A stretch of 58,345 bases of DNA, from the NCBI GenBank assembly GCA_964351475.1, contig CAYGOB010000002.1, positions 1 to 58,345 on the forward strand, in the 5' to 3' direction. The notes beneath the pieces were generated by a model. The model made no database searches. It worked only from the letters and a program-made list of their open reading frames with translations, and had not been told where the DNA came from. The DNA is from an uncultured Candidatus Saccharibacteria bacterium. Its GTDB lineage: Bacteria; Patescibacteriota; Dojkabacteria; SC72. The translations under genes and the position numbers were made by a program. This document shows positions 39,709-49,546 of this stretch, piece by piece. Every line of letters begins with the position of its first letter. Positions within the stretch are counted from its first letter, which is position 1.

Positions 39709-40941
39709 ATGAAAATATATAAAAAGATACTAAACACCCTACCCTTACTCCTGTTACTCTTTACAATATCCTTAATACTACCTAGTAGATCGGAAGCTGC
39801 ACAATTTTACTTTAAGTCATACACCCTATCCCAAGACGAAACTGTAAACGAAGACATCTATGTAGTAGGTGAAGAAGTAAGAATAGACGGTGTAGTAGAT
39901 GGAGATGTAATTGCCTTTGGAGACACTATACAAATAAATGGAACAATTACAGGAGATGTATACCTAATGGCAAGTAAGGTAGATGTAAATGCAAACATAT
40001 ATGGTAATACCTTCATATTTGCAAACAATACAACCATAGAAGGACTAATAACAGAAAACACCTACATAGCTTCTACCTTTCTCTCTTACAGTGCAGACAC
40101 TCAAAGAGACATGTTCTCTCTTTTCTTAGAAGGTACCATTAAAGGTTCTGTAGGAGATGACCTAAGAACAGTTGGAATGAGATCTAACATTGACTCAGTT
40201 GTAAGAGGAGATCTTGTTTTAATAACAAACCAAGAAACCATTAACGAAGACAATATTACAGGAGAAATATATGATGGTGCTAGATTACAAGACATCGCCC
40301 GAGCACAAGGAGTAGACCTAGATGAACCATTAAATGTAGAAATGTCATCCCTTAATTTCAGACCTACATGGAGAACTAGAATGTTAACGCTCTTTGTAAA
40401 CTTCCTTGCTATGTTACTAGTAGGATTCATCATAATAATGCTCTCCCCTATTAAGACATACCAAATCCAAGAGAGAATTACAGGTTCTACAAATGAATTC
40501 TTTAAGAGCTTAGTAGCTGGTTTTCTAATATCCTTACTAATTCCCCTTCCACTCTTCATACTCTCCATCTCAGTCATAGGTACTCCCGCAGCTATCTTAA
40601 TAATTGGTTTGCTAGCCTTCATAATGATCTTTGGTAAGATCTGGGTAGAAACAGCATTCGGTAGAGAAATATTAATTCTCTTTAAAGTGGAAGAGTACAG
40701 ACCATTTAAGTCATTTTTAGTAGGAAGATTATTAACAGTACTGGTTAATATCATTCCAATAGTAAGAGGTTTTTACAATGTAATTCTTGCATTCGTAGCA
40801 CTAGGAGCAGTAGTTAGAATGAAAAGAGGTTACTACCTAATTGCAAACAAAGAAGCTAAAGAATTTAGAGAAAAGAGTAAGAGTACAAAGAAAACAATTT
40901 CAAAAAAGACAACAAGCAAGAAAGCAAGTACGAAGAAGTAA
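39709..40941 (+). CDS. Secreted beta-helical repeat (bactofilin/polymer-forming-like) domain fused to a multi-TM region and a Lys-rich tail
   Basis: Signal peptide ...PSRSEAAQ. Repeats such as DGVVDGDVIAFGDTIQINGTITGDVYLMASKVDVNANIYGN. About 4 TM helices and the tail KSKSTKKTISKKTTSKKASTKK. Confidence 0.55.
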   Translation: MKIYKKILNTLPLLLLLFTISLILPSRSEAAQFYFKSYTLSQDETVNEDIYVVGEEVRIDGVVDGDVIAFGDTIQINGTITGDVYLMASKVDVNANIYGNTFIFANNTTIEGLITENTYIASTFLSYSADTQRDMFSLFLEGTIKGSVGDDLRTVGMRSNIDSVVRGDLVLITNQETINEDNITGEIYDGARLQDIARAQGVDLDEPLNVEMSSLNFRPTWRTRMLTLFVNFLAMLLVGFIIIMLSPIKTYQIQERITGSTNEFFKSLVAGFLISLLIPLPLFILSISVIGTPAAILIIGLLAFIMIFGKIWVETAFGREILILFKVEEYRPFKSFLVGRLLTVLVNIIPIVRGFYNVILAFVALGAVVRMKRGYYLIANKEAKEFREKSKSTKKTISKKTTSKKASTKK

Positions 40942-41036: not shown

Positions 41037-41798
41037 TTACTTAAGTAATGCTTCTATAGCTTCTACAAAGGTATCATAAGGATATGCTCCTGCTATTAGA
41101 GTACCCTCTACTGTACCATCCTCCCCTATTAGGCCAACAATAAAACCAGGAGTACCACTAATCCCAGCATTCCTTCCTTCTGTAGCCCTTGCTTCTACTA
41201 CATCTCTGTATGTACCATTATCCAAACATGCTCTAAAGTCATCTCCATCAACTCCTAAATCTACTGCTAGATCTACTAAACCATCTACTGAAGAAACATT
41301 AAACGCTCTCTTATGGTATTCTAGGAAAATTTCACTATCTGACATTCTATGCAAACATACACCACCCTCTGCAATACTGTAACCTAACTGACCAGCTGCA
41401 CTTAATGGAAATTCCTTAAAGACATACAATATCTTTCCCGTATCTATGTAGTTTTCCTTAATACTTGGAAATGTCTCATCTGCATGCCTTTGACAGAAAC
41501 CACATTGGTAGTCACTAAACTCTATTATTGCAACCGTAGCAGTCTCAGGATCTCCCAAAATTGCACCATCACCCAATGTTACTGTCCCCTCTCCAAACTC
41601 CTCACCTATCCCCTCGTCTGCTGTAGGTATCGTACTATCCCCTGCATTATCTAAAGTAACAGGCGCATTATTCCTAGATGCAAAAAATATTACAGCAGCT
41701 ATTAATACCCCTGATATCAATATTGCTATTGGTACCCCTGCATTATCTAAATTAATTACTACCTCATCCTTCTTCTCCTTCTTTTTTGTTTTTGCCAT
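41037..41798 (-). CDS. Membrane-anchored DsbA-family thiol:disulfide oxidoreductase
   Basis: N-terminal TM, the active site FSDYQCGFCQRH (CxxC), and a thioredoxin-like length. Confidence 0.8.
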   Translation of the reverse strand: MAKTKKKEKKDEVVINLDNAGVPIAILISGVLIAAVIFFASRNNAPVTLDNAGDSTIPTADEGIGEEFGEGTVTLGDGAILGDPETATVAIIEFSDYQCGFCQRHADETFPSIKENYIDTGKILYVFKEFPLSAAGQLGYSIAEGGVCLHRMSDSEIFLEYHKRAFNVSSVDGLVDLAVDLGVDGDDFRACLDNGTYRDVVEARATEGRNAGISGTPGFIVGLIGEDGTVEGTLIAGAYPYDTFVEAIEALLK

Positions 41799-42820: not shown

Positions 42821-44635
42821 ATGAAGAAAGTTAAATATTTGCTATTCCCATTAGGAGTCTTCTTTTTGTTAATTATTGGTTCTCGCTTCGTCAAAGCTAC
42901 GGGAGAATGGACCGAAATAGAAATAAATCCACACAGGTTTGGGCATCAATGTTTGGCAGCAACCAACGACAATATCTATTGTATAGGAGGAAGACCAAGT
43001 CCTTTTGCTAATTTTGAACCCCCCAAAAACGAGATGCTTAATACTGAAACCGGCAAATGGGTTCAAAAGACAGGTATAGAAGATGTGGATAATCCATGGG
43101 GAGAAGGAAATGTCCCTGGAGGTGGTCAAACAATTATTTTTGCTACTGCTTTAGGTGATTATATCTTCGTCGTCGATGGGGTTTACATGGCTGATTATGG
43201 AGGTCACGGACCTAATTATGTCTACAGAGCATATAATATTCTAACTGATGAATGGACAATACCTGATTATGCTAAGCAACCACCAGCAGAATTTTTTCTA
43301 ACAGGAGCATTAACATATGACGGCAAAGCACATTTCGTTGGATTCACAGCAGAAGGAGGTAATAGATATCTAACAGTATATGAAATAGATAATGGATTAG
43401 AGTGGACCAAATCATATCAGAGTGATACTCCCACGCCAGCAGAAAATGTTAGATCTTCTACAATAACTACATCCATTGGAAATAAATTATATGTATTTGG
43501 AGGAGCAGGTGTTCAAGCACATGCGAATTATACAAGATCTACTTTTGTTTTCAACATCACTAACCATAGTTGGACAAGAAAAACAGATATGCCTCTGTTA
43601 AGAAGTAACGGTGCCGCAACACCTAGCCCAGATGGAACAAAAATTTATTACTTTGGTGGTGACAAATCACCTCAGATAATGAATAATGATGGCACAAATA
43701 CAGTTCAAATCTATAATGTTGCTTCAGATTCATGGACTATCTCCAGTAATTTTATGTCCAAAAGAGCGCAGGCAGATCATAATTCAGCAACTGCTGCTGG
43801 AAAGGTGTACCTAATCTTAAGTGCCGAGAGTGTCACAGAGGATTACAAAGGAGAAAGACCCGTAATGAACTACTACATTGATCAGAATTTTAACGAACAA
43901 ACACCAGGATGGGGACATACACATTTTGCATCGTTAAACATAATCCACTGTTTCCCAAACTACAGCAGATGTAACTATCACATATCTCCTGGGAGTGAAA
44001 ACACTCAGTTCCCTCTGTTCACAAGTATTCACAATGGAAGGAAAGTTGCAATCGCAGAAGATTTAATAAATAACTCCCTAGCATTTATGATGGAGGGACT
44101 TCCAGAAGATGCACAAAGACTATTGATCACTTTCCCTGACAAGTCTTTCACAATAAGTGGGAGTTTAGATTGGGATGGCATTTTTGTATTACCAAAGGTT
44201 TTACCTTCACCTACAGTTGAACCAGACTCTTTTGAAACTCTTGGCGTGACTATTAAATTAGGAGGAAATGTAGGATTAGAATTCTCTGAACCCGTAAGAA
44301 TTCTGATTCCTGGAGAAGGAGGAAAAGGAGTAGGATATATTGAACCTAGTTCTAATGTATTTAACGAAATTACAACAATTTGTAAGGAAGATGATTTTGC
44401 ACAAGTAAGAGAACAATTAGCTAGTGGAGGAATTTGTAAAAAAGACGAAATCTTTGACCATGAACATGCACAAGACAATCTAATAATATGGACTACTCAT
44501 TTAACTGAATTCGTTACATACCAAGAAGAAGAATTACCTGAAACTGGTATGGGGGTAATTTACTTAGTCTCATTTGGAATAGTTAGTTTGGTTGTAGGAA
44601 GTGTGATAGTTAAGAAGCAGAAATTACTAAATTAG
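42821..44635 (+). CDS. Secreted Kelch-repeat beta-propeller surface protein with C-terminal LPETG sorting signal
   Basis: Signal peptide. Kelch-like IYCIGGRPS, LYVFGGAG and IYYFGGDK. LPETG at nt 44534-44548, followed by a 21-aa hydrophobic segment and KKQKLLN. Confidence 0.8.
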   Translation: MKKVKYLLFPLGVFFLLIIGSRFVKATGEWTEIEINPHRFGHQCLAATNDNIYCIGGRPSPFANFEPPKNEMLNTETGKWVQKTGIEDVDNPWGEGNVPGGGQTIIFATALGDYIFVVDGVYMADYGGHGPNYVYRAYNILTDEWTIPDYAKQPPAEFFLTGALTYDGKAHFVGFTAEGGNRYLTVYEIDNGLEWTKSYQSDTPTPAENVRSSTITTSIGNKLYVFGGAGVQAHANYTRSTFVFNITNHSWTRKTDMPLLRSNGAATPSPDGTKIYYFGGDKSPQIMNNDGTNTVQIYNVASDSWTISSNFMSKRAQADHNSATAAGKVYLILSAESVTEDYKGERPVMNYYIDQNFNEQTPGWGHTHFASLNIIHCFPNYSRCNYHISPGSENTQFPLFTSIHNGRKVAIAEDLINNSLAFMMEGLPEDAQRLLITFPDKSFTISGSLDWDGIFVLPKVLPSPTVEPDSFETLGVTIKLGGNVGLEFSEPVRILIPGEGGKGVGYIEPSSNVFNEITTICKEDDFAQVREQLASGGICKKDEIFDHEHAQDNLIIWTTHLTEFVTYQEEELPETGMGVIYLVSFGIVSLVVGSVIVKKQKLLN

Positions 44636-44655
44636 AAAATATTTAGAACATAAAG

Positions 44656-44686
44656 GAGCCTCTCTTAAAGAGAGGCTCTTTCTTTT
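44656..44686 (+). terminator. Rho-independent terminator
   Basis: GAGCCTCTC (44656-44664), loop TTAAA, GAGAGGCTC (44670-44678), then TTTCTTTT. Lies 20 nt after the stop of the Kelch gene. Confidence 0.7.
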
Positions 44687-44702
44687 CTGATATCATATAC
44701 AT

Positions 44703-45371
44703 ATGCAAAAAGAAAAAAAGATAACTAAAGAAAAAATTAAAAATTTCTTACTAAAAAACAAAATATTTCATGTAGTATTAATATTTATACTTAGCTATTT
44801 AATACTAGCTCCATTTCTTCCTGAAATTGATTACCAAATTAGAAAATTACTAGGTATTAGATACCGAGAGGAAGAAGTTTTTGTATACAACCCAGATAAC
44901 TATGATTTTGATGACGAGACAGATAAACTGAGGAGGGAATATGAGTATGAGCCTGTAACAGGCAACAGATTAGTCATTCCCACCATAGGGGTATACATTG
45001 GTATAGTAGAAGGAAATAATGAGTCTGTACTCTTTAGAGGAGCTTGGAGAAGACCTAATTCTAGTACTCCAGATAGAGGGGGGAATACTGTAATAACAGG
45101 ACACAGATTTCATTATGTACCTCCAAATAACAAAACTTTTTACAATTTAAATAAGATAGAAGAAGGTTCGAAAATATTTGTACTGTGGAATGACAAGGAA
45201 TATATATATCAGGTTTATGATGTCTTTATTGTAGAACCTGATCAGACAGAAATAGAGAATAATACAGAAGATGATATATTAACTCTTTACACATGTCACC
45301 CTCTATGGACAGCAAAACAAAGATTAGTAGTTAGAGCAAAGCTAATAAATATTTTGGAAGTCACTGAATAG
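44703..45371 (+). CDS. Sortase (transpeptidase) with N-terminal membrane anchor
   Basis: Catalytic triad context: ITGHRFHY (His), LTLYTCHP (TLxTC Cys) and RLVVRAKL (Arg). Confidence 0.85.
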   Translation: MQKEKKITKEKIKNFLLKNKIFHVVLIFILSYLILAPFLPEIDYQIRKLLGIRYREEEVFVYNPDNYDFDDETDKLRREYEYEPVTGNRLVIPTIGVYIGIVEGNNESVLFRGAWRRPNSSTPDRGGNTVITGHRFHYVPPNNKTFYNLNKIEEGSKIFVLWNDKEYIYQVYDVFIVEPDQTEIENNTEDDILTLYTCHPLWTAKQRLVVRAKLINILEVTE

Positions 45372-45385
45372 AAAAGAGAAATATT

Positions 45386-45793
45386 TTACAAACTTAAATC
45401 CTCCTGTATCTCCTTCATCTCATCCCCAGGTAATTGCTTTCTATGATTGCCTTCTCTAAAAACCTTAGTATCTTCATATATTGGTTTTACATGTATATGT
45501 ATGTGATCTATTTCTTGCCCTGCCTTTCTACCATTATTCTGGTTTATTAATATCCCTTCTGGTTCATACTCATCCTGTATTTTTTGTGCTATCTTTTTTA
45601 CAACCTCATTCATATGTCCATACAAATCACTAGGTACATCCAAGATATTTCCGTAATGTTCTTTAGAAAGGACTAACGTGTGACCCTTACTTATGGGATT
45701 AATATCTAAAAACGCATAAACCCTCTCATCCTCATACACCTTGTACGCAGGAATATCTCCTTTCACAATTTTACAAAATATACAATCATCCAT
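45386..45793 (-). CDS. HIT (histidine triad) family nucleotide hydrolase/transferase
   Basis: CIFCKI...GHTLV...HIHIHV triad. Confidence 0.9.
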   Translation of the reverse strand: MDDCIFCKIVKGDIPAYKVYEDERVYAFLDINPISKGHTLVLSKEHYGNILDVPSDLYGHMNEVVKKIAQKIQDEYEPEGILINQNNGRKAGQEIDHIHIHVKPIYEDTKVFREGNHRKQLPGDEMKEIQEDLSL

Positions 45794-45795
45794 AC

Positions 45796-46002
45796 TTACT
45801 CCTCAACCACTATAGCTACAGTAGGACAAGCCGCTACAGCTTCTCTAACCTTTTCCTGTAATTCTGGGTCTGTAATATCTTTACCCTTGTACTCTTCCTT
45901 AACATCTACACTACCATCGTCTTTTCCTTCAAAAACCTCTGGGCATATTGCCACACAAGAAAAACATAGTACACATTTTTCTTTGTCTAATACTACTTTC
46001 AT
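45796..46002 (-). CDS. Small monocluster ferredoxin
   Basis: 68 aa with CVLCFSCVAICP (CxxCxxCxxxCP) plus a distal ACPTVAI, like monocluster Fe-S ferredoxins. Confidence 0.85.
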   Translation of the reverse strand: MKVVLDKEKCVLCFSCVAICPEVFEGKDDGSVDVKEEYKGKDITDPELQEKVREAVAACPTVAIVVEE

Positions 46003-46058
46003 ATTAAATATATTTAAAAATTATATTACCCCTATTTTTACAAATACCAACCAATAGG

Positions 46059-47063
46059 TCAAACAGACTTCTTTCTTTTCATCTGTGCCATATATTGAGG
46101 TATTCTTTGTATGAAATGATAAATTGCTAAAAAGCCCATTACCAAAGAAAGTTCAACATGCCAGTACATAAAGTCAAAATCAATATTCCATAATTCAGAC
46201 CTCTTTGTACGTATCATCATGAATATTCCAAAGGCCATACCTGGAATCAAAAGAAGAAGCAAAAGTACTGTGTTCCAAAATGCATTGTATTTGTGGATAG
46301 TAACTCCAAAGAATTTGTCAGCCTTTACTAAGAAATACATACCCCAATACAGAACTGTAGTTAAAACAAAGGGTATTAAAATATTGTACTCCCTTGGTTT
46401 TGTAGTTTCCTCTTCAATATCTTCAACCAATATTTGAGTATCTACTAAATCTACCTCTCCTTTTAGTTCTCCTATTTTGTACTGCTCTAGGAGTTCATAC
46501 GTACCTTCCCTATGATCTCTACCTATCCCAGCTTTGTCTTTGAAATCTTGGGTCATATCCAAACCACACCATTCCCTAATATCCATAAATTTGTCATGGT
46601 CTGGAAGATACTCACTAAAGTCATATACACTATTCTCAAAAACCATCCAACAATCTCCCTCTACATTATGTTGTGCTACCTCTTCCATAGTATACAAAGG
46701 TAAAACTGTTTCAATTAATTGCCCTATGTAATATTCCTCTAACATCTCATATGTCCCCTCCCTGTGATCTCTACCTGCTCCTGCCTTGTCTTTGAAGTCC
46801 TCTGTCATATCCAAACCACACCACTCTCTAATGTCCATAAATTTATCATGGTCTGGAAGATACTCAGAGAAATCATAGACACCTTCCTCAAATACCATCC
46901 AACAATCTTCTGGGGTATTATGCTTTTCTACCTCCTCCATAGTATACTTCTCAGTCTCTTGTAAATCAGAGTCCTCTACACCTGCATAATCTGCATAAAG
47001 AGAACTTGTAAGAAACATTGTAAGAACAATTAAAAAAGGTAAAAGTAAAAATTTCTTTCTCAT
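46059..47063 (-). CDS. Secreted tandem cytochrome-b5-like domains fused to a 3-TM His-containing membrane domain
   Basis: Signal peptide, then two ~77-aa units: YTMEEVxxHN..DCWMVFE..VYDFSEYLPDHDKF...GRDHREGTYE.LE.Y.IG.L. These align with the b5 fold, and both axial His positions are kept even though HPGG is replaced by HDKF. The C-terminus has 3 TM helices with His residues (TIHKYN, YWHVE, IYHF) and a KRKK tail. Confidence 0.7.
   Translation of the reverse strand: MRKKFLLLPFLIVLTMFLTSSLYADYAGVEDSDLQETEKYTMEEVEKHNTPEDCWMVFEEGVYDFSEYLPDHDKFMDIREWCGLDMTEDFKDKAGAGRDHREGTYEMLEEYYIGQLIETVLPLYTMEEVAQHNVEGDCWMVFENSVYDFSEYLPDHDKFMDIREWCGLDMTQDFKDKAGIGRDHREGTYELLEQYKIGELKGEVDLVDTQILVEDIEEETTKPREYNILIPFVLTTVLYWGMYFLVKADKFFGVTIHKYNAFWNTVLLLLLLIPGMAFGIFMMIRTKRSELWNIDFDFMYWHVELSLVMGFLAIYHFIQRIPQYMAQMKRKKSV
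46468..46946 (-). repeat. Intragenic tandem duplication, two 227-bp units with 252-bp period
   Basis: Units 46468-46694 and 46720-46946. Identical runs include CATATCCAAACCACACCA and CATGGTCTGGAAGATACTCA at a 252-nt offset. They encode the two b5-like domains. Confidence 0.85.
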
Positions 47064-47142: not shown

Positions 47143-47718
47143 ATGAAAAAAGTATTAATAATAATTCTCTCCGTAGGAGTAATTCTAGGAGTAGGAGGAT
47201 ATTTCCTAGTTAAGGAGTCTTATGCTGCTACACCTGCAGATCCTCTTTTTGCAGTTCAAGGGATAGCAGATGATGTACAAAGAGCTTTTACCTTTAACGA
47301 TGTTGCAAAAACACAATTAGAGCAAAAGATATTGGTAAGAAGACAAGAACAGGTTGAGAGAATGACTGAGAGAGATGATGTTACAGATGAGCAGTTAGAG
47401 GAGGCTCTACAATTAATGGCACAACAGAGAACGAGAGTACAGGAGAGATTGCAAATAGTACAACAGACACTTGTTGACAATGATGCGAATGAGAGAGCTA
47501 TAGAGGCTATTGAAGATGTACAAATGAGATATGATGAAAATCTAGATAGACAGTTAGAAACTATTGAGAAAGCCCAAGAGAGAGGAAATGGTATAGGGCA
47601 GAGTGTAAAAGAGGATACAGTAGAGGAAGCAATACAAAGAGGAAGGAATGTTCCTCAAAATATGGGAGATGAGATAAGAGAGCAACAAGGTAATGCTCCT
47701 GAGGATATAGGGAGATAG
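47143..47718 (+). CDS. Anchored helical protein, DUF5667-like
   Basis: N-terminal TM, then PADPLFAVQGIADDVQRAF...AKTQLEQKILVRRQEQ, resembling the DUF5667 start (PGdpLYxlK...) from memory. The rest is E/Q/R-rich helical sequence. Confidence 0.45.
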   Translation: MKKVLIIILSVGVILGVGGYFLVKESYAATPADPLFAVQGIADDVQRAFTFNDVAKTQLEQKILVRRQEQVERMTERDDVTDEQLEEALQLMAQQRTRVQERLQIVQQTLVDNDANERAIEAIEDVQMRYDENLDRQLETIEKAQERGNGIGQSVKEDTVEEAIQRGRNVPQNMGDEIREQQGNAPEDIGR

Positions 47719-47728
47719 ATTAGAGAAA

Positions 47729-49546
47729 CTAACTTACATAACCCTCTGCTTGTTTAGTAAATGCACTAAAGTATCTACCTTCATTTTGCATTAATTTCTC
47801 ATGTGTACCATCCTCCACTATCTTTCCATCATGTAATACTATTATCCTGTCTGCATTTCTTACAGTAGAAAATCTATGTGAGATTATTACTACAGTCTTA
47901 TTTTCAAAGAATTTATATATTCTATTAAATATCCTGTACTCTGACTCCGCATCTATAGCAGATGTAGGTTCATCAAATATTGCAACTGGGGCATTTCTGT
48001 AAAAGAATCTTGCTATCGCTATCTTTTGTCTTTGTCCATTACTTGGCCTTATACCATCCTCAAACCTTTCACTCAATATTGTTTTGTACCCATCTTTGTA
48101 CTTTTGTATAAAATCATGAGCATCTGCATTCTTAGCTGCTTCTATCATCTTCTCTTTATCTAACTCTTTTACAGATTTTCCTAAATAAATATTTTCCTCT
48201 GCATTTAAATGACCATAGAAATTGTAATCCTGAAACAAAACCCCTATATTCTTATACCAATCATTCAGTTTAATATCCTTTAGATTAATATCATTAACAA
48301 AAATATCTCCCTCCTGTGGGTCGTAAATTCTAGCAAGCAATTTAACCAAAGTTGTTTTACCTGCTCCATTTTCTCCTACTATGGCAATTTTCTCTCCAGA
48401 TTTAATCTTTAAGGAAAAGTTGTCAAAAATATTTTTCTCATCATTAGGGTAGTGAAAAGAAATGTTTTTTACCTCTATACTAGGAGCTTCCTCAAATCTT
48501 GGAATCTTAATATCACCATCCGCAACAACAGGTCGAAGGTTAAAGAAGTTGTAAACTTCCTTGGCCTTCATTACAAAATCTCTGAAAGCAATTGCCTCTG
48601 CAAAGAAACTCTCTACCCCTTCATAGAAGTTATTAATAGAACTCATGTAAAATGTTGTATCTCCAATAGATATCTGATCAAGAAGAAGGAGAGCAAAAAC
48701 TTGAAGATAACCAAAAAGAATTACAATATTACTTAGAATTGAAAGGAAAAATCCGCTTAGGGAAGACCCCTTCATTATTTTCATATACCCCTTGTTGTAG
48801 TAGTCAAAGAATTTTGTAAACAGACTATCCAAATAATTAAAAGCCCCTGTTATAGACACCTCCCCTATAAAACGAGTATCCGCTATAGTTCCTGATGTCC
48901 AATAACTCTTTCTCCTTCCAGTAACATGTTTGTCACTTGTCTGCCAGTCAAAATCTTTCTTAAAGAAGTATCTTCTTTGGAAAAAATAAATAATAGAGAG
49001 AACAAGGATAAATGGAACAACAAGAGGAACCTGACTTAGAATAATTGAGCCTGCAACAGCTGTTTTTACAAAAGCAGAAATTAATCTTACAACGTTCCCA
49101 CTTATCTCCATTATAAAGTTCAGCCAGTCCTGCATCTTTTGATGGGTATTGGCTACCTCTGGAAGCTCAAGTGTTTGAGGACCAAGGAAATTACATTTCT
49201 CATAAGCAAGCTTTTGTAAATATGGTCGAGAGATAGTCCTTAAAACTCGATTTGAATAATGCCTTAATTCATCTAAAGCAGAAAAAGCAAGATTTACAAG
49301 TAGAAATATTAAAAGAAAAGGGACCAAATCTCTAACCTGAGTACCTTCAGTGGTTGCCATTCTGATTAATTCGTCTATTAATCTTGCAAAGATGTATATA
49401 TTAACCAGAGATCTTAGATTTCTAACAACCTCTGACAACAGCGACATTATTATTAAAGAAGGAGATATTCCCCATACTATTTTAAGAGACCAGAACGCTA
49501 TTTGAAAATATTCCTTAAAAGAAACATCCTTTTCCTTTTTATCCAT
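47729..49546 (-). CDS. ABC exporter, fused TMD-NBD half transporter
   Basis: 605 aa, Walker A GENGAGKTT, a degenerate signature PSNGQRQK, Walker B AIFDEPTS. Confidence 0.9.
   Translation of the reverse strand: MDKKEKDVSFKEYFQIAFWSLKIVWGISPSLIIMSLLSEVVRNLRSLVNIYIFARLIDELIRMATTEGTQVRDLVPFLLIFLLVNLAFSALDELRHYSNRVLRTISRPYLQKLAYEKCNFLGPQTLELPEVANTHQKMQDWLNFIMEISGNVVRLISAFVKTAVAGSIILSQVPLVVPFILVLSIIYFFQRRYFFKKDFDWQTSDKHVTGRRKSYWTSGTIADTRFIGEVSITGAFNYLDSLFTKFFDYYNKGYMKIMKGSSLSGFFLSILSNIVILFGYLQVFALLLLDQISIGDTTFYMSSINNFYEGVESFFAEAIAFRDFVMKAKEVYNFFNLRPVVADGDIKIPRFEEAPSIEVKNISFHYPNDEKNIFDNFSLKIKSGEKIAIVGENGAGKTTLVKLLARIYDPQEGDIFVNDINLKDIKLNDWYKNIGVLFQDYNFYGHLNAEENIYLGKSVKELDKEKMIEAAKNADAHDFIQKYKDGYKTILSERFEDGIRPSNGQRQKIAIARFFYRNAPVAIFDEPTSAIDAESEYRIFNRIYKFFENKTVVIISHRFSTVRNADRIIVLHDGKIVEDGTHEKLMQNEGRYFSAFTKQAEGYVS

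What the first reader, a model, noticed from the sequence alone, without database searches (positions are those of the whole stretch)
45796..47063. Secreted double cytochrome-b5-like module fused to a His-bearing 3-TM domain, co-oriented with a cytoplasmic ferredoxin: candidate minimal trans-membrane electron conduit
The 334-aa protein has a signal peptide and two b5-fold units. Both canonical axial His positions are retained (LPDHDKF aligns with the HPGG His, GRDHREG with the distal His), although HPGG itself is replaced by HDKF. Each unit also has two Cys (DCW, WCG) that could form a disulfide outside the cell, and a DsbA is encoded 4 kb away. The C-terminus has three TM helices with His at helix ends (TIHKYN, YWHVE, IYHF) and a cytoplasmic KRKK tail. 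That pattern is reminiscent of small b-type cytochrome membrane domains (DUF4405-like, from memory). A 68-aa monocluster ferredoxin starts 56 nt downstream on the same strand, followed 2 nt later by a HIT protein. Extracytoplasmic b5 domains are rare in bacteria, and a b5-b5-membrane fusion next to a ferredoxin is not a described system to my knowledge. It could pass electrons between cytoplasmic ferredoxin and an external acceptor or donor, or bind haem or sterol-like ligands scavenged from a host.
Basis: partly seen in the sequence, partly recalled or inferred. Interest (0 to 1): 0.66.

Follow-up and report, generated by a model that had tools for sequence, protein, structure and literature searches.

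The report
Surface cytochrome b5 on two-histidine membrane module
A tiny symbiotic-type (CPR/Dojkabacteria) bacterium that cannot make haem encodes an outward-facing double cytochrome b5 fused to a small three-helix membrane module with two invariant histidines; this probably pairs up to carry electrons across the membrane, but the proposed link to the neighbouring ferredoxin gene does not hold up.

Summary
ORF 46059-47063(-) encodes a signal peptide, two genuine cytochrome b5 domains and three TM helices. A mono-cluster ferredoxin lies 56 nt downstream and a HIT gene 2 nt after that.

In 115 homologues both b5 axial His and both Cys are 97-100% conserved. The closest structure is bacterial cytochrome b558 (1CXY).

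His302 and His316 lie 14 residues apart on the last helix, so one chain cannot hold a haem between them. The membrane module is an undescribed family with no Pfam model (391 clusters). It also occurs behind a Cys-rich head (MJ0753_N) or alone. It has a weak, above-background profile link to haem-b-binding DUF4405, and FezC gives a precedent for forming haem sites by dimerising.

My best reading (about 0.45) is a homodimeric, half-size dihaem membrane cytochrome feeding tethered b5 haems, loaded with scavenged haem.

The ferredoxin link is only local synteny. It is adjacent in 9 of 37 species, and each gene occurs without the other.

Verdict: a new variant of a known kind, untested biochemically.

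The parts
46992..47063 (-). Signal peptide, residues 1-24 (MRKKFLLLPFLIVLTMFLTSSLYA, then DYAG).
   Evidence: Positively charged n-region followed by a hydrophobic core. Ala24 is at least 90% conserved across the alignment. In single-b5 homologues the mature protein starts directly at the b5 fold.
46716..46952 (-). Cytochrome b5 unit 1, residues 38-116. Axial His72 and His100; Cys54 and Cys82.
   Evidence: Pfam PF00173 stretch 41-116. Genome search hit at 46716-46943. pLDDT is above 90 over most of the unit. Alignment to b5 structures.
46464..46700 (-). Cytochrome b5 unit 2, residues 122-200. Axial His156 and His184; Cys138 and Cys166. A recent internal duplicate of unit 1.
   Evidence: 1CXY alignment E=6.4e-14 with both His and both Cys aligned. 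Foldseek to 1CXY gives TM-score 0.89 (target-normalised) and rmsd 1.5 A. 83% amino-acid identity to unit 1. H156 is 99%, H184 100%, C138 98% and C166 100% conserved in 115 sequences.
46389..46463 (-). Acidic, disordered tether, residues 201-225.
   Evidence: pLDDT below 50 for residues 204-218. Length and sequence vary among homologues.
46062..46388 (-). Three-TM two-His module, residues 226-334. TM1 is 229-247, TM2 256-287, TM3 298-319, followed by a basic cytoplasmic tail.
   Evidence: The domain-only AF2 model has pLDDT 90.2. The profile finds 391 clusters at 50% identity. W263 and N264 are 95-97%, G279 96%, and H302 and H316 99% conserved across 147 representatives. No Pfam model covers it.
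46158..46160 (-). His302 codon (YWHVE), at the outer end of TM3. Proposed ligand of the outer haem.
   Evidence: 100% conserved in 115 close homologues and 99% in 147 distant representatives. Aligns to the His of AHEW in DUF4405.
46116..46118 (-). His316 codon (IYHF), at the inner end of TM3. Proposed ligand of the inner haem.
   Evidence: 100% and 99% conserved. Lies 14 residues after His302, about 21 A along the helix, within about 40 degrees of the same face.
45796..46002 (-). 68-aa single-cluster ferredoxin. A positional neighbour, not a demonstrated partner.
   Evidence: Fer4_15 and Fer4_13. Adjacent in only 9 of 37 loci. Occurs independently of the fusion.
45386..45793 (-). HIT-family hydrolase, tightly linked to the ferredoxin.
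   Evidence: PF01230 at 1.2e-26. The ferredoxin-HIT pair stays together when it is separated from the b5-TM gene.
47143..47718 (+). Divergently oriented DUF5667 gene upstream (context only).
   Evidence: PF18915 at 6.5e-08. Next to the fusion in about 15 of 37 loci.
47729..49546 (-). Generic MsbA-like ABC exporter half-transporter on the same strand, upstream. It is the most persistent neighbour (context only).
   Evidence: ABC_tran. Every NCBIfam equivalog falls below its cutoff. Within about 0.8 kb upstream, or immediately downstream in two loci, in 19 of 37 loci.
41037..41798 (-). Membrane-anchored DsbA-like thiol oxidase with a CGFC motif. A plausible maker of the b5 disulfide.
   Evidence: Thioredoxin_4 and DSBA. 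Syntenic in close relatives.

Best explanation
**What it is.** The gene encodes a cell-surface, membrane-rooted b-type cytochrome. After Sec export and signal-peptide cleavage, two b5 domains sit outside the cell on a flexible acidic tether of about 25 residues. Each has bis-His ligation and is 1CXY-like, and each is probably stabilised by a Cys-Cys disulfide.

**The root.** The root is a three-helix module. Its last helix carries two invariant His, 14 residues (about 21 A) apart, one near each membrane face. One chain cannot sandwich a haem between them.

**Proposed assembly.** I infer that two chains pair. His302/His302' would ligate an outer haem b and His316/His316' an inner haem b. That would give a half-size, FezC/DUF4405-like dihaem transmembrane wire.

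**Proposed direction.** Electrons from a soluble cytoplasmic reductant (identity unknown; ferredoxin is only one candidate) would pass from the inner haem to the outer haem, then to the tethered b5 haem(s), then to an external acceptor. That acceptor could be Fe(III), a host-surface or dissolved oxidant, or an extracytoplasmic enzyme.

**Haem supply.** The lineage lacks tetrapyrrole synthesis, so every haem would have to be scavenged from outside.

**Shown versus inferred.**
- Shown: domain identities, residue conservation, predicted topology, family breadth, haem auxotrophy, and non-conservation of the ferredoxin link.
- Inferred: haem binding, dimerisation, direction of transfer, donor and acceptor.
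For: **b5 heads.**
- PF00173 at E=1.3e-29 in two stretches.
- Best sequence and fold match is 1CXY: E=6.4e-14, TM-score 0.89, rmsd 1.5 A.
- Axial His and the Cys pair are 97-100% conserved in 115 homologues.

**Membrane module.**
- H302 and H316 are 100% conserved in 115 sequences and 99% in 147 representatives at 50% identity or less.
- The H-x13-H spacing equals that of both His helices of genuine DUF4405 proteins.
- hhalign puts H302 and H316 on the DUF4405 AHEW...HH pair. Score 21.5, against 100 column shuffles (mean 11.7, max 20.1) and a reversed control (7.9).
- 2 of 141 family members give weak direct Pfam DUF4405 hits.
- Other conserved residues cluster at two depths around the two His: Y226, G279 and W301 outside; Y239, W263, N264 and R320 inside.

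**Precedents.**
- DUF4405 and FezC bind haem b experimentally. An AlphaFold model in that paper indicates FezC could form DUF4405-like haem-binding sites by homodimerising (PMC11334425).
- CPR genomes are reported to pair b5 genes with dihaem ferric-reductase-like membrane genes (bioRxiv 10.1101/2021.11.17.468889).

**Autonomy of the module.** It also occurs alone or behind another head, so it has a function of its own.

**Haem supply.** ALAD is absent from 0 of 41 related genomes and cytochrome bd from 0 of 41. Yet the b5 His are strictly kept, so exogenous haem use is implied.
Against: - There is no experimental evidence of haem binding for any member.
- The Pfam DUF4405 model does not hit the window protein.
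- The b5-bearing subfamily alone scores only 14.7 in hhalign, and 7 of 100 shuffles reach that. The link rests on distant family members and on about 29 columns.
- The monomer model finds no structural relative in the PDB (best E=4.4), and the profile finds no PDB sequence relative.
- Dimerisation could not be modelled here.
- TM3 shows no significant one-sided conservation (p=0.59).
- The module is common in lineages that cannot make haem. It also occurs alone in Methanobacterium, a cytochrome-less methanogen.
- In homologue P0018 the membrane-proximal b5 unit has lost both His, so a strict b5-to-b5 relay is not universal.
- The gene is accessory and patchy: 57 of 201 genomes in the class.
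- No cytoplasmic donor or external acceptor has been identified.
Confidence: 0.45

Rival explanations
1. Haem capture for a haem auxotroph. The exposed b5 units would act as haemophore-like receptors that bind environmental or host haem. The His-bearing module would store it or hand it across the membrane, for iron or for other proteins, and would not conduct electrons.
For: The lineage lacks ALAD (0 of 41). The b5 units are extracellular on a flexible tether. The unit number varies through duplication. A His at each membrane face could in principle relay a haem. From my own knowledge, TM His pairs handle haem in the cytochrome c synthase CcsBA, and the bis-His haemophore HmuY exists.
Against: No other classical haem protein was found that would need imported haem: cytochrome bd 0 of 41, and in this genus the only b5 is the fusion itself. 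Six-coordinate bis-His b5 is typical of electron carriers. The same module occurs with a non-haem head or no head. A three-helix unit is small for a haem pore.
Confidence: 0.17
2. One reading: a self-contained, monomeric b5-b5-3TM conduit whose dedicated cytoplasmic donor is the ferredoxin encoded 56 nt downstream.
For: The two genes share a strand with a 56-nt gap and no terminator-like site between them. The adjacency is kept in 9 close relatives and in most same-genus genomes. Reduced ferredoxin would be a thermodynamically sensible donor. The basic C-tail could dock an acidic ferredoxin (inference).
Against: Adjacency is lost in 28 of 37 loci. The ferredoxin occurs without the fusion in 6 genomes and the fusion without this ferredoxin in 4. 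In G001 the fusion gene is cleanly absent from the same block. The ferredoxin's tight partner is HIT. One of the three proposed membrane His is not conserved, and a monomer has no His pair that can hold a haem.
Confidence: 0.1
3. The three-TM module does not bind haem. It would be an oligomeric metal-ion, proton or signalling unit, or a conserved scaffold. The b5 units would work independently as a tethered surface redox carrier or sensor for some other extracytoplasmic enzyme.
For: No Pfam, PDB or fold evidence ties the module to a cytochrome at significance. It is enriched in haem-auxotrophic CPR and DPANN and is present in Methanobacterium. Its commonest head (MJ0753_N) has three Cys plus Asp residues, which looks like a small metal site.
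Against: Two His 14 residues apart cannot form one metal site. The H-x13-H spacing and the flanking W, Y, N and R clusters are the hallmark of dihaem membrane cytochromes. The profile link to DUF4405 is above background. From my own knowledge of b5 fusion enzymes, b5 domains are nearly always fused to their redox partner.
Confidence: 0.18

Closest known systems
Cytochrome b558 of Ectothiorhodospira vacuolata (PDB 1CXY), the prokaryotic soluble cytochrome b5
   Same: Best sequence match (E=6.4e-14) and best fold match (TM-score 0.89, rmsd 1.5 A). Both axial His and both Cys align. The alignment to 1CXY is nearly gap-free, whereas alignment to rat b5 needs a 4-residue gap before the second His. 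From memory of the 1999 J Biol Chem description, not re-read here: 1CXY has a disulfide and a four-residue insertion before the sixth ligand.
   Different: 1CXY is a free soluble single domain with an HPG motif. Here the motif is HDKF, the domain is duplicated in tandem, and it is covalently tethered to a conserved membrane module.
DUF4405 (PF14358) flavinylation-associated cytochromes and the ferrosome protein FezC (PMC11334425)
   Same: Membrane helices carry His pairs at i and i+14. The distant members of this family share the H-x13-H-x3-HW signature. hhalign puts the His pair on a DUF4405 His pair and scores above shuffled controls. In that paper an AlphaFold model indicates FezC could form such sites by homodimerising, and recombinant FezC binds haem b. 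That is the arrangement proposed here.
   Different: DUF4405 has six TM helices and four His in one chain; this module has three TM helices and two His. The Pfam model does not detect it. No apbE or flavinylation context was seen in the loci examined. I had no FezC sequence to compare. Haem binding is untested.
CPR cytochrome-b5 genes co-located with ferric-reductase-like (PF01794) membrane genes (bioRxiv 10.1101/2021.11.17.468889)
   Same: Same kind of organism and the same logic: a b5 haem domain combined with a dihaem membrane protein in bacteria that lack respiration and haem synthesis. In this order, pFre is found in 3 of 41 genomes, and none of the three has the fusion.
   Different: There the parts are separate genes and the membrane part is a canonical six-TM ferric-reductase domain. 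Here it is a single polypeptide with an unrelated, much smaller module. The apparent mutual exclusion is not statistically meaningful (3 against 15 of 41).
Eukaryotic CYBDOM proteins and cytochrome b561 / Dcytb trans-membrane ferric reductases
   Same: Working analogy only, from my own knowledge: an extracellular b-haem domain attached to a dihaem transmembrane core that passes cytoplasmic electrons to external Fe(III) or other acceptors.
   Different: No homology is shown. Cytochrom_B561 and Ni_hydr_CYTB give only sub-threshold hits (E=0.036 to 0.11) on relatives. The head here is b5, not DOMON. The core would be a 2 x 3-TM dimer, not six TM helices in one chain.

Membership tests
Cytochrome b5 (PF00173) | Profile match above the curated cutoff | tested here: met
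   102.5 bits against a cutoff of 23.7, in two stretches. Both units also hit in the genome search.
Cytochrome b5 (PF00173) | b5 alpha/beta fold | tested here: met
   In the AF2 model the b5 units have pLDDT of 90 or more over most 10-residue blocks. Foldseek gives 1CXY at TM-score 0.89, followed by dozens of b5 structures.
Cytochrome b5 (PF00173) | Two axial His ligands at the canonical positions | tested here: met
   Aligned His-on-His with 1CXY and rat b5. 99-100% conserved in 115 homologues.
Cytochrome b5 (PF00173) | HPGG motif around the first ligand | tested here: not met
   The motif is H-D-K/R-F/Y throughout the family. Only the His is retained.
Cytochrome b5 (PF00173) | Binds one haem b per domain | not testable with these tools
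   Needs expression and spectroscopy.
1CXY-type bacterial b5 | Intradomain Cys pair (disulfide) | tested here: met
   DCW and WCG align with the two Cys of 1CXY. 98-100% conserved. Formation of the disulfide itself was not tested.
DUF4405 (PF14358) | Profile match above the curated cutoff (26.7 bits) | tested here: not met
   No hit on the C-terminal domain even at E up to 10. No hit in the window's own genome at E up to 0.01, and only one sub-cutoff hit (16.7 bits) among 40 relatives. Only 2 of 141 family members give weak hits, best E=4e-4.
DUF4405 (PF14358) | Six TM helices with four His on two helices (H-x13-H twice) | tested here: not met
   This module has three TM helices and one H-x13-H helix. 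Genuine DUF4405 proteins have two such helices.
DUF4405 (PF14358) | Detectable remote homology (profile-profile) | tested here: inconclusive
   hhalign scores 21.5 (P=0.0045, 29 columns), above 100 of 100 column shuffles and the reversed control. The b5 subfamily alone scores 14.7, reached by 7 of 100 shuffles.
FezC-like homodimeric half-cytochrome | Homodimer that forms bis-His haem b sites between the two chains | not testable with these tools
The precedent is from PMC11334425.
Ferric_reduct / MsrQ (PF01794) | Profile match | tested here: not met
   No hit on the window's genome. One relative (P0265) gives E=0.54.
Prokaryotic cytochrome b561 (Ni_hydr_CYTB, PF01292) | Profile match | tested here: not met
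   Only sub-threshold hits on relatives, at E=0.11 and 0.037 and 12.7-14.2 bits against a cutoff of 30.1.
   Adjacent in 9 of 37 loci. Counts across 41 genomes: both 11, ferredoxin only 6, fusion only 4. The fusion gene is cleanly absent in G001.

The most novel reading that the evidence does not exclude
Haem-auxotrophic, respiration-less CPR bacteria would build a complete trans-membrane electron conduit from one small gene and scavenged haem. It would be a homodimer with two membrane haems, held by one His-pair helix per chain, and two to four tethered b5 haems. Fermenting episymbionts could then discharge reducing equivalents to an external acceptor or a host cell. The underlying three-TM two-His module (391 clusters, no Pfam model) would be the smallest known class of dihaem membrane cytochrome, and would be shared by CPR, DPANN and some methanogens behind interchangeable heads.
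Probability: 0.3. Interest if true: 0.8.

Novelty: new variant of a known kind. Interest (0 to 1): 0.55.

Why it matters
CPR/Patescibacteria are usually described as lacking electron-transport chains and haem synthesis. A conserved, strictly bis-His cytochrome b5 on their surface implies that they use scavenged haem. It is fused to a membrane module with the exact His spacing of dihaem cytochromes, so they may also move electrons across the membrane.

If the module is a half-size cytochrome that works as a dimer, it would define a minimal architecture for transmembrane electron transfer. It would also give a function to a large unannotated family (391 clusters at 50% identity) that carries several different outward-facing heads.

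The protein is small and easy to express, so the hypothesis can be tested directly.

Tried and rejected
- **Pfam and NCBIfam on the C-terminal domain.** No family found.
- **Fold and sequence search for the membrane module.** Foldseek of the TM-only model against the PDB gave only noise, best E=4.4. The profile search against PDB sequences gave 0 hits at E up to 10.
- **Pfam DUF4405 model on the genome and relatives.** Nothing above the family cutoff; one sub-cutoff hit among the relatives.
- **PF27309.** This precomputed label is absent from the local Pfam copy. It turned out to name the alternative Cys-rich head (MJ0753_N), not the membrane module.
- **Natural six-TM duplications of the module.** None found. 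All hits had one stretch except P0128, which has a single TM module.
- **One-sided conservation on TM3 as a proxy for a dimer or haem face.** Not significant, p=0.59.
- **Tandem Repeats Finder.** It did not report the 252-nt duplication. The duplication is nonetheless clear from protein and DNA alignment.
- **ABC exporter as a haem (CydDC-like) transporter.** Rejected: it is generic and MsbA-like, below all cutoffs.
- **Mutual exclusion of pFre and the fusion.** The numbers are too small to count as evidence.
- **Promoter and terminator scan.** Not above shuffled expectation, so co-transcription with the ferredoxin stays undecided.
- **Beta/gamma-crystallin Pfam hit** (26.7 bits against a cutoff of 25). 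It overlaps b5 unit 2 and I treat it as spurious.
- **Proteiniclasticum 'relatives' from the genome scan.** Spurious frames.
Full report
**Observation**

ORF 46059..47063(-) encodes 334 aa. A 68-aa ORF (45796..46002, -) starts 56 nt downstream, and a 135-aa ORF (45386..45793, -) follows 2 nt later.

Pfam assigns these families:
- Large protein: Cyt-b5, E=1.3e-29, two stretches.
- Small ORF: single-cluster ferredoxin families Fer4_15 and Fer4_13.
- Third ORF: HIT.
- 41037..41798(-): a Thioredoxin_4/DSBA protein with a CGFC motif.

The N-terminus is a typical Sec signal ending in Y-A, and Ala24 is nearly invariant in the family. AF2 predicts two b5 folds, a disordered acidic tether (204-218), and helices at 229-247, 256-287 and 298-319. 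Basic residues concentrate in loop 1 and the C-tail. That fits b5 outside and the tail inside.

**The b5 units**

The best solved relative, by sequence and by fold, is the bacterial cytochrome b558 of Ectothiorhodospira (1CXY).
- Sequence: E=6.4e-14.
- Fold: TM-score 0.89, rmsd 1.5 A.
- Both axial His (HDKF, DH) align with its ligands, and DCW and WCG align with its two Cys.

In a 115-sequence alignment the conservation is H156 99%, H184 100%, C138 98% and C166 100%. Only the HPGG motif is not kept.

The two units are 83% identical in protein and 78% in DNA. Most family members have one unit. The tandem form is a lineage-specific duplication. In one tandem homologue (P0018) the membrane-proximal unit has lost both His but kept both Cys.

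**The membrane domain**

H302 (YWHVE) and H316 (IYHF) are invariant. These two sit 14 residues apart on the same helix. That is about 21 A, within about 40 degrees of the same face, with one His near each membrane surface. One chain therefore cannot ligate a haem with two His.

No Pfam or NCBIfam model covers the domain. A profile of it finds 391 clusters at 50% identity. Across 147 representatives the two His are 99% conserved, W263 and N264 are 95-97%, and G279 is 96%.

The module occurs in several architectures:
- Behind b5 (37 of 141 members).
- Behind a secreted Cys-rich head now named MJ0753_N (PF27309). This head has three near-invariant Cys plus Asp residues and no twin-arginine signal.
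- Behind that head plus a helical insert.
- Alone, at about 100-150 aa, including in Methanobacterium.
- Once, fused to a spermine-synthase domain.

The module is therefore an autonomous functional unit that accepts different outward-facing heads.

**Relation to known cytochromes**

A 2024 study showed that DUF4405 proteins (six TM helices, four central His) and the ferrosome protein FezC bind haem b. An AlphaFold model in that study indicates FezC could form DUF4405-like haem-binding sites by homodimerising (PMC11334425).

I fetched ten genuine DUF4405 proteins, all above the Pfam cutoff. They carry two helices with His at i and i+14: AHEWxG-x9-HH and LH-x13-H-LGL-HW. The distant members of the present family read WHVExG-x9-H-xxW-HW.

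hhalign of the family against DUF4405 aligns H302 and H316 onto the first DUF4405 His pair, with a score of 21.5 (P=0.0045).
- 100 column-shuffled controls: mean 11.7, sd 2.4, max 20.1.
- Reversed control: 7.9.
- b5-bearing subfamily alone: 14.7, reached by 7 of 100 shuffles.

The link is weak, above background and at motif level. It is not a family membership. The Pfam DUF4405 model does not hit. The monomer model has no PDB fold match, and the profile has no PDB sequence match.

**Organism**

The genome is a 652-kb draft, 82% complete. Its closest named relatives are Candidatus Dojkabacteria; several records carry an automatic 'Saccharibacteria' label.
- ALAD is absent from 41 of 41 related genomes, against 11 of 14 controls.
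- Cytochrome bd is absent from 41 of 41.
- Ferric_reduct occurs above its cutoff in 3 of 41, none in this genus.
- In this genus the only b5 is the fusion itself.

The fusion is single-copy and patchy. It is found in 57 of 201 genomes of the class, and is missing even from closed genomes of the same family. It is an accessory gene of a haem auxotroph, so any haem must be scavenged. A preprint already noted that CPR genomes pair b5 genes with ferric-reductase-like membrane genes (10.1101/2021.11.17.468889). Haem proteins in CPR, and the b5-plus-membrane-cytochrome logic, therefore have a precedent.

**The ferredoxin**

Among 37 species-representative loci the ferredoxin shows this pattern (examples):
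- Immediately downstream in 9, all close relatives.
- About 1 kb away in 1.
- 3.3-4 kb away in 6.
- Not seen in the remaining 21.

On one set of 41 genomes both genes occur in 11, the ferredoxin alone in 6, the fusion alone in 4, and neither in 20. In G001, a 95%-complete genome of the same genus, DUF5667 abuts ferredoxin-HIT with the fusion gene absent. The ferredoxin's constant partner is HIT.

The ferredoxin may still be a donor, but the genomic evidence does not single it out. A generic MsbA-like ABC exporter is the more persistent neighbour, and it is uninformative.

**Mechanism proposed (confidence about 0.45)**

Two chains would pair through their three-TM modules. The two His302 would hold an outer haem b and the two His316 an inner haem b. 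Electrons from a soluble cytoplasmic reductant would cross these two haems to the tethered b5 haem(s), and from there to an external acceptor.

- Shown: domain identity, conservation, topology, family breadth, auxotrophy.
- Inferred: haem in the membrane module, dimerisation, direction, partners.

Rivals:
- Haem capture or hand-over (0.17).
- A non-haem module with an independent b5 (0.18).

**Limits**

I had no FezC sequence to compare. Earlier notes of this scan describe the same module and similar CPR b5 systems. I treated them as leads only; the DUF4405/FezC comparison here was made independently.

**Verdict**

This is a real, conserved and undescribed fusion of a 1CXY-type cytochrome b5 to a half-size, DUF4405/FezC-like two-His membrane module. 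It is a new variant of a known kind. It is interesting as a candidate minimal electron conduit in a haem-auxotrophic CPR bacterium. Its cofactor content and function are untested, and the ferredoxin coupling is not supported.

Noticed in passing
window 42821-45371: A 604-aa Kelch beta-propeller protein ends in LPETG, a hydrophobic stretch and a basic tail, which is a sortase-substrate signal. A sortase gene (44703-45371) follows directly. This looks like a surface-display pair, inserted between the HIT gene and the abhydrolase gene compared with relatives.
   Followed up: partly
P0193, P0268-P0385; loci L012-L014: The same three-TM two-His module most often carries a secreted Cys-rich head (Pfam PF27309, 'MJ0753_N'). 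The head has three near-invariant Cys, conserved Asp residues and a Sec-type signal. It is widespread in Patescibacteria and DPANN/Euryarchaeota, and its neighbours are not conserved.
   Followed up: partly
L052, L053, L054, L056 (Methanobacterium / Methanobacteriota): Stand-alone members of the module of about 107 aa (LWN...LYWHVEFG...FHI) occur in methanogens regarded as cytochrome-free. This is odd if the module is a haem protein.
   Followed up: partly
P0018 (homologue, 333 aa): In this tandem b5 protein the membrane-proximal unit has lost both axial His (LLENEN, SLDGEPG) but kept both Cys.
   Followed up: partly
window 47729-49546 and loci L015-L051: A generic MsbA-like ABC exporter half-transporter lies just upstream of the fusion on the same strand, or just downstream in two loci, in 19 of 37 species. 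That is more persistent than the ferredoxin. No specific family could be assigned.
   Followed up: partly
G027, G031, G024 (same order): These are the only genomes of the 41 with a Ferric_reduct (PF01794) gene. Two of the three also have a separate small b5, adjacent in G031, and none has the b5-3TM fusion. The two systems may be alternatives, but the numbers are too small to tell.
   Followed up: partly
P0238 (822 aa): The three-TM two-His module sits at the N-terminus of a protein with a spermine/spermidine-synthase domain.
   Followed up: no
window 46563-46691 (protein residues 125-167): A Pfam beta/gamma-crystallin hit just above its cutoff (26.7 against 25 bits) overlaps b5 unit 2. The same label is precomputed for two homologues. 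It is probably a false positive of that model on b5 sequence.
   Followed up: partly
L015, L017, L019 and other loci: Many public MAG records that clearly belong to the Dojkabacteria lineage are titled 'uncultured Candidatus Saccharibacteria bacterium'. One of them has 93% identity to the window's membrane module. This is probably an automatic mislabel.
   Followed up: no
window 39709-40941 and 47143-47718: A DUF8173 membrane protein and a DUF5667 protein, both of unknown function, belong to the same conserved block as DsbA, abhydrolase, HIT and ferredoxin.
   Followed up: no
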